Assembly: GCF_030013595.1 (NCBI RefSeq)
Contig: NZ_CP122768.1
DNA length: 64,000 bases
Direction: 5' to 3' (one strand)
Source of the DNA: Escherichia coli
GTDB lineage: Bacteria; Pseudomonadota; Gammaproteobacteria; Enterobacterales; Enterobacteriaceae
Made by a program: the position numbers. Every line of letters begins with the position of its first letter. Position 1 is the stretch's first letter. Below are positions 18,001-21,000 of this stretch, piece by piece.

Positions 18001-21000
18001 TCTGAAGACCACCACTGGTGACAGTCGTTTTGTTGGCTGTTCCGCCATCCTGTACCCATTGCCCGCCGGTATTGGCCTCGTTATCCGGCCCATACTCCAG
18101 CCCGGTACTGATGGTCATTCCGTTGGTCGTACCGAAGACAATCTGGTTGTCATGATTTGCCAGTGTTCCGCCGTTCACGGTTTCTCCCGGGTGCACAACG
18201 ATGTCAGCAGCCAGCACCGGGAGTGACGTGACTGCGGCAAGAGACAGTGCAACCGCCACACCGCCACGTTTACCCCGTGCGCGGGCCAGTTCGGAGGCAA
18301 CCACGAAAGCGCCCGTAATGTGATTCCATACCAGCCTGTAGCAGGTATTCAGATGTCGTTTCATCAGCTTTTCCTTAGATTGAGGGTGAATAAAAAAGCC
18401 GGTACCCACAAACGTGGATACCGGCAGGTAAAGGGTTACAGTGCCGGAGGTCCGGCTGTGGGAGTTTCTGAATTGTGGTTCTGTTGTTCCCTGAATGTCT
18501 TTCTGTACGTATCTGTGCATGTTACTGACAAAGGTTATTATTAGCTTATCGATCGATATAAACGATCGATAAAATAGATATCGATCGTTTTATTCTATTA
18601 TTGAGCTATTGCACGGACAAGAGAGACAGTAACGAAAACAGTGCTTTTGTGAGCAGACTCAGAGTCAGGGAGGGCATCAGTCACGACAGGTTCAGAAGAA
18701 AATCCAGTTCCATACCGCACGGGCAACAGAGACCACCGTGTCACGAACAGCGCGCAGGGCCGTACGGACAACAGAGGCAACACAGACGCTCTCCGCTGTG
18801 TCAAATATCCGGTCCACCGCACCGGTAAACTGTTCACGGGCCTGAGAGCGGACAGATTCCGTGCGCAGCTCGTCCTGCAGTCGGGTCATCAGGGGACTGG
18901 CGGCATGGTCGGGAAGCGCTGTCATGAGCGCACTGACCAGCGTATCCAGTTCCCAGCCGGTGCGGGCCGATACGGCCACAACCGGATGTACGGGCCGGAA
19001 CAGACGGAATACCGCCTCCGTTTTTTCGCGAATATTCTGTGCCTGTGCAGGAGAAGGCTGAATACCGGCCATATCCCATTCATGGCAGGGCTCCGTTTTG
19101 TCGGCCTGCGTCACCACAAACAGTACCCGCTGATGTCCCCGGTGCAGGATGTGTCGCCAGAAATACTCATCCACAGACAGGGCACGGTCATCGGCTTTAA
19201 TCAGCCACAGTACCAGGTCAAGTTCAGGCAGAATGTCACGGTACAGGGCCTCATACTCTGCATCCCTGTCCCGGCTCTCGCCCACCCCGGGCAGGTCAGT
19301 GATAACCATGCTGTGACCGTGGCCACTCAGACGGAAGCGCCGTACTTCCCGGGTGCCGGCGTGAACATCACTGACCGGGGTGACCTCCCCCTGAAACAGT
19401 GCATTACAGAGTGAGGATTTACCGGCCCCGCTTTTACCCATAATGCCAATCACGGGTTCGTGACGGGTGAGTTTGCGCAGATGTTCCAGGATGTGACGGG
19501 AAAGCGAGTAAGGCAGGGAGGAGAGCGGTTTTTCAATTGCCTCAATGGCATCAGACGGATTCATACATGTATTCCCGGTGAAAAAAGACAAAACCCCGCG
19601 CACCGGAAAGGTGGCGGGGGATTCACGGAGATAATATCTGTCTGAAATTGTTTTTAATCGATGGGATTGTTGCGTATTAACATGAAGGAGATCAGGACTT
19701 ATCCGTTACTGGGTGATCTCCTTCCATGAAAATACGCCGTTATTGTTAAACAGCAGGCTGATTTCTCCGTAAAGGGGAAAATATTTATCGGCTGCATGAT
19801 TATCAGGTGTGTCTGTGTTTACTGCTGTGAGTATTTTTCAGTGTATTGTGGGGGAGATGTCAGTGGGAGATATTAAATTTACATTTATAATTATCTTACT
19901 TCTTCTGTGTGTTTTTTATAAGAGTGCACACGTAATGATATCTGTTGATACCATGTGGTTAAGTGTTTCCCTTCCTGGTCATGCGTAATGATTAAATGCT
20001 TTTGTGACACCATTCTTCCGGTCTGAATATTTATCCCGTTCTTTTTTATTTGTGCAGTGATACTGTCGGAAGAGAATTCAGTAATGTGAGGTGTCCTGGT
20101 CAGGATAATATCTGCTGAGATATTATTAGTTGAGTGTGTTTTTACTGAGCAAAAGCTGGCTTTTAATTCCTGTACTGAAACACTGTCGCTCGTCCGGGGT
20201 TAACTGAAACTGGATGATGATGTAAAATGAAGGCTGTTTTTGTGTTTGTCGAAGAAGTGTTATTTTAATCCATTCTCATCATTGGCTGGCGATTATACAG
20301 AAGTATTTGAAGAAAAAATGGTGCATTTTATCTGTGTCAGCAGGGAAGAAGTATTTTATTGATGTATCAGTATTAAATGGTTTTTGTTATTTATAAAAAT
20401 GTCATCCTGTCCATAGAATATTGTACTCAGCATTCAGTGCAGGAACTGTAGTCTTCTTTATTTTATTCTTCTTCAGGAGGGGGGATTCCTGAAGGCGTTA
20501 TTCCCGGTGTTCTGTTTATGATTCATCCCGGCAGGAAACCGGTATCTGCAATACCCGGGATGATGCTTTTTGTTCGTACGTGGTTGTGTAAAATTTGAAT
20601 AGTGGATGTGCTCTGAAGGGAAGGAGGGGACACACAGATTCATTTTGTCTTTCTTCAGCAGCAAAACACACTGTGGTTATTATTTAACCATTAAATCAAC
20701 AAAAATTTTTACCTCATATTGATTTGACTGCTATTTTTGCTATTAATAGCCAGAATTGCAGTGCTTTTATATCTGTGTGTAGTGAGGTTACTATGTCATT
20801 CGGTCAGCCTTGTGATGAGTTTCCCCTGAGTTCGCTGCCTCCACTCATTCGTGATGCCGTTATTGAAGCTCAGCAAATTACGCAGGCTCCCCTTGGGCTT
20901 GTGGCAGCGTCTGCCCTGGGCGCTGTTTCACTTGTCTGCCAGAATCTGATTGATGTCTGCAGACTGAATACACTGCGGGGGCCGGTCTCTCTTTTTTTCC

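What the first reader, a model, noticed from the sequence alone, without database searches (positions are those of the whole stretch)
18365..18691. Ag43 phase-variation switch region is intact (three GATC sites)
The flu upstream region carries three GATC sites within 36 bp (18551, 18564, 18583), the hallmark of the Dam/OxyR epigenetic switch, so this Ag43 copy is probably phase-variable. Any sRNA in the yeeP-flu intergenic region (isrC in K-12, from memory) cannot be confirmed from sequence alone.
Basis: established knowledge. Interest (0 to 1): 0.3.

Follow-up and report, generated by a model that had tools for sequence, protein, structure and literature searches.

The report
Known Ag43 on/off switch, intact
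This stretch is the well-studied DNA-methylation on/off switch in front of the E. coli adhesin gene flu (Ag43), almost identical to the laboratory K-12 version, so it is ordinary and already explained.

Summary
GATC occurs at 18551, 18564 and 18583, in the 327-bp gap between a yeeP-like GTPase gene and flu/agn43. Both genes are on the minus strand, and the flu ATG is at 18364.

Three GATC in 36 bp is not significant by count: random placement gives such a cluster in about half of trials. The meaning comes from homology. The region is 326/327 identical to E. coli K-12, where the Dam/OxyR switch was established experimentally. All ten alleles compared, including O157 cah, keep the sites at offsets 0/+19/+32. 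The window's best OxyR-consensus match (14/20, tied with two other sites) covers all three sites. The promoter, leader and Ag43 (1038/1039 aa) are intact.

Rfam IS102 (= IsrC) matches full length at 253.5 bits. It is the flu leader itself, running from the G of GATC-I to a strong intrinsic terminator 27 nt before the ATG.

Verdict: already known, low interest.

Side observation: the flu and cah coding sequences have almost no GATC (0 against about 8 expected). Three other K-12 autotransporter genes have normal counts. A neighbouring module of the island is also GATC-poor.

The parts
15245..18364 (-). flu/agn43 coding sequence: Ag43 self-associating autotransporter, 1039 aa plus stop
   Evidence: 1038/1039 aa identical to K-12 Ag43, differing only by M16I. 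Pfam finds ESPR, AIDA, AC_1 and Autotransporter domains. Annotated agn43 at the same coordinates in strain YF-1. Contains no GATC.
18365..18691 (-). yeeP-flu intergenic regulatory region, the interval given in the finding
   Evidence: 326/327 identical to MG1655. 100% identical in several other E. coli chromosomes.
18592..18620 (-). sigma-70-type promoter: -35 TTGTCC (18620..18615), 17-bp spacer, -10 TAGAAT (18597..18592)
   Evidence: The only promoter-like hit in 18200-18900. AGAATAAAACGATC is present in all 10 alleles. The K-12 isrC 5' end maps 6 nt downstream of the -10.
18552..18588 (-). OxyR-consensus site (two half-sites, 37 bp) covering all three GATC sites and the transcription start
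   Evidence: 14/20 matches to ATAGnTnnnAnCTAT-N7-ATAGnTnnnAnCTAT, the top score in the whole 64-kb window, tied with 18530-18566 and 23841-23877. Scores 13-14 at this offset in the 8 agn43 alleles. Binding itself is inferred from K-12 literature.
18583..18586 (.). GATC-I, at +1..+4 of the leader by the K-12 isrC annotation
18564..18567 (.). GATC-II (+20..+23)
18551..18554 (.). GATC-III (+33..+36)
18582..18582 (-). The only difference from K-12 in the region: G on the flu strand (A in K-12), directly 3' of GATC-I. It makes all three sites CGATCG.
   Evidence: G in 7 of 10 alleles, and lower-case g in the Rfam consensus.
18385..18588 (-). IsrC / IS102 RNA, which is the 5' leader of flu. The K-12 isrC annotation maps to 18586..18392.
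   Evidence: Rfam RF00124, 253.5 bits (cut-off 46), model positions 1-206 of 206. MG1655 ncRNA isrC b4435 lies 27 nt upstream of flu. The 223-nt stretch 18588..18366 folds with z = -5.25 against shuffles.
18392..18425 (-). Intrinsic terminator inside the leader: 12-bp stem (18425..18398) followed by T6 (18397..18392), ending 27 nt before the flu ATG
   Evidence: Terminator scan. Hairpin free energy -22.3 kcal/mol. The stem-plus-T6 pattern GCCGGTATCCAC-N4-GTGGNTACCGGC-TTTTTT is found in all 10 alleles including cah. The K-12 isrC 3' end maps to the last T.
18372..18376 (-). Shine-Dalgarno AAGGA of flu, 7 nt before the ATG at 18364
   Evidence: Read directly from the sequence. TAAGGAAA is invariant in alignment A2.
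18692..19564 (-). Upstream neighbour: intact yeeP-like GTPase gene (a pseudogene in K-12)
   Evidence: Pfam MMR_HSR1 match. Annotated 'GTPase family protein'. yeeP is a pseudogene in MG1655.

Best explanation
This is the canonical Dam/OxyR epigenetic phase-variation switch of the Ag43 adhesin gene (flu/agn43), in an E. coli CP4-44-type island, in the same form as in K-12.

A sigma-70 promoter (TTGTCC-17-TAGAAT) starts transcription at about 18586 on the minus strand. A single OxyR site (18588..18552) overlaps the start and holds three GATC sites at +1, +20 and +33. When the three sites are unmethylated, OxyR binds, blocks RNA polymerase and shields the sites from Dam. That is the OFF state. 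When Dam has methylated them, OxyR cannot bind and flu is transcribed. That is the ON state. [quoted passage not shown]

A second layer lies in the 222-nt leader. A strong intrinsic terminator 27 nt before the ATG ends part of the transcripts, and the terminated product is the about 195-nt RNA catalogued as IsrC/IS102.

Shown here: all cis elements, their identity to K-12, their conservation across alleles, and the RNA-family match. Inferred from K-12 literature: OxyR binding, methylation states, switching, and termination/antitermination in vivo.
For: - Three GATC at 18551, 18564 and 18583.
- 326/327 identity to the MG1655 yeeP-flu region.
- Ag43 is 1038/1039 identical to K-12 and carries all autotransporter domains.
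- A single promoter-like site directly upstream, and a terminator-like hairpin plus T6 in the leader.
- The top OxyR-consensus score of the whole window falls over the three GATC.
- GATC offsets 0/+19/+32, the -10 hexamer and the terminator pattern are kept in 10 of 10 alleles, although the cah leader is otherwise diverged.
- Rfam IS102 matches full length at 253.5 bits. The K-12 isrC annotation maps from the G of GATC-I to the end of the T-tract.
- Terminator hairpin free energy is -22.3 kcal/mol.
- oxyR and dam are each present in 5425 of 5426 E. coli genomes.
- Literature: PMC2909390, PMC4872104, PMC3764049 and PMC13337833 describe the mechanism at K-12 agn43. [quoted passage not shown] 2014.
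Against: - Nothing in the sequence argues against it.
- Three GATC in 36 bp is not statistically unusual on its own, so the argument rests on homology.
- The OxyR match is only 14/20, tied with two other sites in the window (18530-18566 and 23841-23877).
- The base next to GATC-I differs from the K-12 allele that was tested experimentally.
- oxyR and dam lie outside the window, so their state in this strain is unknown.
- The primary papers (Wallecha 2002, Wallecha 2014, Kaminska 2010) could not be read.
Confidence: 0.9

Rival explanations
1. The switch is present in sequence but does not switch normally in this strain. The cause could be the G-for-A change next to GATC-I altering OxyR affinity or Dam kinetics. 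It could also be a defective oxyR or dam elsewhere in this genome.
For: One SNP directly flanks GATC-I. Sequence flanking GATC can affect Dam processivity, which is documented for pap but reported as not implicated for agn43 (PMC2909390). oxyR and dam are not in the window.
Against: The G variant is the majority form: 7 of 10 alleles. In addition, 376 genomes are >=99% identical over the 86-bp core. It is also the Rfam consensus base. The position is an N of the OxyR consensus, so the score stays 14/20 in both variants. oxyR and dam are each found in 5425 of 5426 E. coli genomes.
Confidence: 0.06
2. The region's main product is an independent trans-acting small RNA (IsrC) with its own targets, and the GATC cluster regulates that sRNA rather than flu.
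For: IsrC is catalogued as a separate ncRNA gene in MG1655 and as an Rfam sRNA family. The leader folds much better than shuffles, z = -5.25.
Against: The RNA begins at the only promoter in front of flu. It ends at a terminator 27 nt before the flu ATG, with no second promoter-like site between, so the two are one transcription unit. PMC5389530 treats IsrC as the flu leader subject to antitermination. A trans role would be additional, not alternative. No target is known to me.
Confidence: 0.03
3. The GATC triple is a chance by-product of an AT-rich palindromic ATCGATCGAT repeat and has no regulatory meaning.
For: A triple this tight arises by chance in about 50% of random placements in 64 kb. 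The sites sit in short palindromes.
Against: All three sites keep an exact 19/13 spacing in 10 of 10 alleles, while the surrounding leader diverges beyond recognition in cah. The region is identical to one where mutating the sites or removing Dam or OxyR locks the phase (literature).
Confidence: 0.01

Closest known systems
agn43/flu Dam-OxyR phase-variation switch of E. coli K-12 (Henderson & Owen 1999; Haagmans & van der Woude 2000; Waldron 2002; Wallecha 2002)
   Same: Same locus, same promoter, same three GATC sites with the same spacing, same OxyR site, same leader and the same protein. Identity is 326/327 nt in the regulatory region and 1038/1039 aa in Ag43.
   Different: One base next to GATC-I (G instead of A). 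The upstream yeeP-like GTPase gene is intact here but is a pseudogene in K-12, with IS2 further upstream in K-12.
IsrC / IS102 RNA (Rfam RF00124; MG1655 b4435)
   Same: Full-length match at 253.5 bits. Same position and strand relative to flu.
   Different: Nothing of substance. One substituted base at leader position +5.
cah (calcium-binding Ag43 homologue) upstream region of E. coli O157:H7
   Same: Same -10 hexamer, same three GATC at 0/+19/+32, same leader terminator, Shine-Dalgarno and start.
   Different: The leader is 30 nt longer and is diverged between GATC-III and the terminator. The coding sequence is only 73% identical.
Salmonella gtr and opvAB OxyR/Dam switches, and the pap Lrp/Dam switch
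   Same: Competition between Dam methylation of GATC sites and a DNA-binding regulator gives heritable ON/OFF states.
   Different: gtr(P22) has four GATC sites in two pairs (starting at -110/-97 and -46/-33) and alternative OxyR sites upstream of the promoter. pap has two GATC boxes 102 bp apart, Lrp and PapI. Here there is one repressor site with three GATC at and after +1.

Membership tests
agn43-type Dam/OxyR phase-variation switch | Lies directly upstream of, and on the same strand as, an intact Ag43-family autotransporter gene | tested here: met
   flu 15245..18364 (-) is 1038/1039 aa identical to K-12 Ag43, with ESPR, AIDA, AC_1 and Autotransporter domains
agn43-type Dam/OxyR phase-variation switch | [quoted passage not shown] | tested here: met
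   Sites at 18583, 18564 and 18551. Offsets 0/+19/+32 are identical in 10 of 10 alleles. The K-12 isrC 5' end maps to the G of GATC-I
agn43-type Dam/OxyR phase-variation switch | A single OxyR binding site that overlaps the GATC sites and the promoter | tested here: inconclusive
   Sequence level only. A 14/20 match to the OxyR consensus at 18552-18588 is the top score in the window, tied with two other sites, and the DNA is identical to K-12 bar one N-position base. Actual binding was not tested.
agn43-type Dam/OxyR phase-variation switch | Sigma-70 promoter positioned so that bound OxyR occludes it | tested here: met
   TTGTCC-17-TAGAAT at 18620..18592. The OxyR-consensus site begins 4 nt after the -10
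agn43-type Dam/OxyR phase-variation switch | Dam and OxyR encoded in the same genome | not testable with these tools
   Neither gene is in the window. Each is found in 5425 of 5426 complete E. coli genomes. Both are present in strain 504239, whose regulatory region is 100% identical to the window.
agn43-type Dam/OxyR phase-variation switch | GATC sites unmethylated in OFF cells and methylated in ON cells, with heritable reversible switching | not testable with these tools
   Needs methylation-aware sequencing of sorted phases or reporter assays
IsrC / IS102 RNA (Rfam RF00124) | Covariance-model score above the curated gathering threshold over the full model | tested here: met
   253.5 bits against 46, model positions 1-206 of 206, not truncated
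IsrC / IS102 RNA (Rfam RF00124) | Lies between yeeP and flu on the flu strand, bounded by a promoter and an intrinsic terminator | tested here: met
IsrC / IS102 RNA (Rfam RF00124) | Detected as a discrete transcript of about 195 nt | not testable with these tools
   Needs Northern blot or RNA-seq from this strain
pap-type Lrp/Dam switch | Two GATC boxes about 102 bp apart with Lrp sites and a PapI-like gene | tested here: not met
   Only three GATC, spaced 19 and 13 bp. The nearest other GATC are at 15181 and 19690. Family definition from PMC2909390.
gtr/opvAB-type OxyR/Dam switch | Paired GATC sites in alternative, mutually exclusive OxyR sites (activating versus repressing) | tested here: not met
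   A second register, one half-site downstream (18566..18530), also scores 14/20 in the window. It drops to 12 in the five most diverged alleles, whereas the register over the GATCs stays at 13-14 in the 8 agn43 alleles. The literature reports a single site at agn43.

The most novel reading that the evidence does not exclude
The switch may depend on being the only Dam target for kilobases. The flu coding sequence has no GATC in 3120 nt, against 8.2 expected from trinucleotide counts and 8.4 +/- 2.2 from synonymous-codon shuffles. The same holds for alleles that are 89-90% identical (0, 0 and 1 GATC) and for cah at 73% identity (0). Three other K-12 autotransporter genes, yfaL, ycgV and ypjA, have normal counts.

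This could be selection that insulates the three switch sites from processive Dam or from SeqA. Alternatively, it could leave a repeat-rich antigen gene poorly served by MutH-dependent mismatch repair, which would favour allelic recombination. The mundane alternative is that parts of this family of integrative islands avoid GATC generally. The antirestriction/radC/toxin-antitoxin module at 8414-11998 has 1 GATC against 12.3 expected, and its CP4-57 counterpart has 2 against 7.9.
Probability: 0.15. Interest if true: 0.45.

Novelty: already known. Interest (0 to 1): 0.1.

Why it matters
This strain's Ag43 adhesin is very likely expressed in only a fraction of cells. Colony-to-colony differences in aggregation or biofilm can be epigenetic rather than genetic. 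The 'sRNA' IsrC here is the terminated flu leader and not an extra gene. None of this is new biology, because it restates the K-12 model at a near-identical locus. The only thread that might repay further work is the conserved lack of GATC in the flu and cah coding sequences.

Tried and rejected
- **Count-based significance of the GATC triple.** Rejected. Random placement gives a triple this tight in 50% of trials, and intergenic shuffles give three or more GATC in 11%.
- **N-terminal extension of Ag43.** The mechanical ORF list shows a 1091-aa ORF starting at an in-frame ATG at 18520 inside the leader. Rejected. There is no Shine-Dalgarno sequence, and in AHB1, DP033, S7, AR0067 and cah the same frame contains stop codons.
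- **A second or alternative OxyR site.** One half-site downstream (18566..18530) also scores 14/20, which would suggest a gtr-like architecture. It falls to 12 in the five most diverged alleles, so it was not pursued.
- **TCGA depletion in flu.** TCGA is 0 against 5 in codon shuffles. Dropped, because the Markov expectation is only 1.6.
- **Antiterminator in the leader.** An alternative pairing of UCCGGC with the terminator's 5' arm exists, but it is weak (-14.7 against -33.3 kcal/mol). The small upstream hairpin is absent in cah. It stays a possibility, not a finding.
- **Primary papers.** Wallecha 2002, Wallecha 2014 and Kaminska 2010 are not held. Mechanistic statements therefore rest on secondary descriptions.
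- **Scan of species-representative genomes for the promoter-plus-GATC pattern.** It gave one hit only, a 1.5-kb contig in a MAG labelled Collinsella that carries a cah-type upstream region, probably mis-binned E. coli DNA. The exact pattern seems confined to E. coli, but the scan needed an exact 14-mer, so diverged relatives would be missed.
- **Literature on GATC depletion in flu or CP4-44.** Nothing relevant was found.

Full report
**What is there**

The interval 18365-18691 is the complete intergenic gap between two minus-strand genes. Upstream is an intact yeeP-like GTPase gene (18692..19564). Downstream is flu/agn43 (15245..18364), whose ATG is at 18364-18362. These are the only GATC sites between 15181 and 19690. 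Read in the direction of flu they are GATC-I (18586..18583), GATC-II (18567..18564) and GATC-III (18554..18551), spaced 19 and 13 bp start to start.

**Is it more than chance?**

By count, it is not. This is the tightest triple in the window. However, placing 187 sites at random in 64 kb gives a triple at least this tight in 50% of trials. Shuffling the 326-bp intergenic sequence gives three or more GATC in 11% of trials. The 'hallmark' is therefore not self-evident from the count, and the evidence has to come from homology and conservation.

**Homology**

- The region is 326/327 identical to the yeeP-flu region of E. coli K-12 MG1655.
- It is 100% identical to several other E. coli chromosomes.
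- The first 25 kb of the window are 100% identical to strain YF-1, NZ_CP161809.1.
- Ag43 here is 1038/1039 identical to the K-12 protein, differing by M16I in the signal peptide. It has the full ESPR, AIDA, autochaperone and beta-barrel domain set.
- The single regulatory difference is the base immediately 3' of GATC-I (window 18582): G on the flu strand here, A in K-12. G is the majority state (7 of 10 alleles compared) and the Rfam consensus base. It falls on an unspecified position of the OxyR consensus.
- In the 5426 complete E. coli genomes, 4064 have a match to the region and 1781 have a match covering at least 80% of it.

**Conservation**

I compared ten alleles. They were the window, MG1655, O104:H4, five further agn43 alleles down to about 87% identity, and two cah-type upstream regions. 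All ten keep AGAATAAAACGATC, which is the -10 hexamer running into GATC-I. All ten keep the three GATC at offsets 0/+19/+32 without any shift. All ten keep the leader terminator pattern. The cah leader between these blocks is otherwise unalignable, and its coding sequence is only 73% identical. This footprint argues against a chance palindrome.

**Anatomy of the switch**

- The only sigma-70-like promoter in 18200-18900 is TTGTCC-17-TAGAAT at 18620..18592 on the flu strand.
- I scanned the whole window with the OxyR consensus ATAGnTnnnAnCTAT-N7-ATAGnTnnnAnCTAT. The top score (14/20) falls at 18552-18588, covering all three GATC sites and beginning 4 nt after the -10. It is tied with 18530-18566 and with one site elsewhere, 23841-23877.
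- The register at 18552-18588 stays at 13-14 in the 8 agn43 alleles, whereas a second register one half-site downstream decays to 12. This agrees with the literature statement that agn43 has a single OxyR site.
- The mechanism is taken from K-12 work as described in PMC2909390, PMC4872104, PMC3764049 and PMC13337833. OxyR bound to unmethylated sites represses transcription and blocks Dam (OFF). Methylated sites exclude OxyR (ON). Hemimethylated DNA after replication re-opens the competition.
- oxyR and dam are outside the window, but each is found in 5425 of 5426 complete E. coli genomes.

**The small RNA**

Rfam RF00124 (IS102, the E. coli IsrC) matches 18385..18588 on the minus strand over the full model, at 253.5 bits against a gathering score of 46. 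MG1655 annotates isrC (b4435) 27 nt upstream of flu.

Mapping that annotation through the alignment places its 5' end on the G of GATC-I (18586). Its 3' end falls on the last T of a T6 tract (18392) that follows a 12-bp hairpin at 18425..18398, with a free energy of -22.3 kcal/mol.

IsrC is therefore the flu leader terminated at an intrinsic terminator just before the Shine-Dalgarno sequence. The three switch GATC sites lie in its first 36 nt. [quoted passage not shown] 2014, which I could not read. The 223-nt stretch from 18588 to 18366 folds much better than shuffles, with z = -5.25.

An in-frame ATG at 18520 gives a stop-free extension of flu in this allele. The same frame has stops in five other alleles, so it is not coding.

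**Verdict on the finding**

The switch is intact at every cis element that can be read from sequence, and phase variation is a sound inference, although it is not demonstrable here. This is textbook K-12 biology at a near-identical locus, so it is already known and of low interest.

**Side observation**

- The flu coding sequence contains no GATC in 3120 nt. Synonymous-codon shuffles give 8.4 +/- 2.2, with a minimum of 2 in 5000 shuffles. The trinucleotide Markov expectation is 8.2, so the Poisson probability of zero is 3e-4.
- The same holds in diverged alleles. S7 has 0, AHB1 has 0 and DP033 has 1, all at 89-90% identity. O157 cah has 0 against 7.6 expected, at 73% identity.
- The K-12 autotransporter genes yfaL, ycgV and ypjA have normal counts, and the gene just downstream of flu is GATC-rich (20 against 14.8).
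- However, the antirestriction/radC/toxin-antitoxin module of the same island (8414-11998) is also nearly GATC-free (1 against 12.3). Its CP4-57 counterpart in K-12 is depleted as well (2 against 7.9).
- The depletion may therefore be a property of parts of this island family and not of the switch.
- I found no paper mentioning it in three targeted searches, but the searchable library is incomplete.

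Noticed in passing
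window 15245-18364 (flu CDS); also L010, L011, L012 and L013: The flu coding sequence has no GATC in 3120 nt, against about 8 expected by codon shuffles and by a Markov model. Diverged agn43 alleles and O157 cah also have 0-1. The K-12 autotransporter genes yfaL, ycgV and ypjA have normal counts.
   Followed up: partly
window 7895-11961: This is a 4066-bp GATC-free stretch covering the yeeW, cbtA, antitoxin, yeeT, yeeS (RadC), antirestriction, DUF932 and DUF905 genes. It has 1 GATC against 12.3 expected over 8414-11998. The equivalent CP4-57 module in K-12 is also depleted (2 against 7.9). By contrast, the yeeR-like gene at 12608-15124 is GATC-rich (20 against 14.8).
   Followed up: partly
window 23841-23930: The AT-rich gap between the AlpA-family regulator and Hha/YmoA genes holds a direct repeat, GAGATCAAA(C/T)ACATGAG, occurring twice 14 bp apart, plus a third GATC at 23926. 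It also holds a 14/20 OxyR-consensus match that ties for the top score in the window. The 161-bp segment occurs in 2115 of 5426 E. coli genomes and is unannotated there.
   Followed up: partly
window 18692-19564: The yeeP-like GTPase gene upstream of flu is intact here (873-nt CDS, MMR_HSR1 domain). In K-12 MG1655 yeeP is an annotated pseudogene.
   Followed up: partly
window 18366-18520: An ATG at 18520 in the leader is in frame with flu with no intervening stop, giving a mechanical 1091-aa ORF. PGAP calls an 'ESPR domain-containing protein' pseudogene from this upstream region in O104:H4. The frame has stops in five other alleles, so it is an annotation trap and not a real extension.
   Followed up: yes
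L017 (JAIJJM010000733.1, 1560 bp): The only species-representative genome contig matching the promoter-plus-three-GATC pattern is in a MAG labelled Collinsella sp. It carries a cah-type E. coli upstream region, so it is probably a mis-binned contig.
   Followed up: partly
window 41076-41151, 43483-43558, 45307-45382, 59690-59765, 60757-60846: The window holds four tRNA-Asn(GTT) genes, all scoring the same 72.6 bits against the Rfam tRNA model, and one tRNA-Ser(CGA). Beyond about 30 kb the window departs from strain YF-1, which matches it closely up to that point.
   Followed up: no
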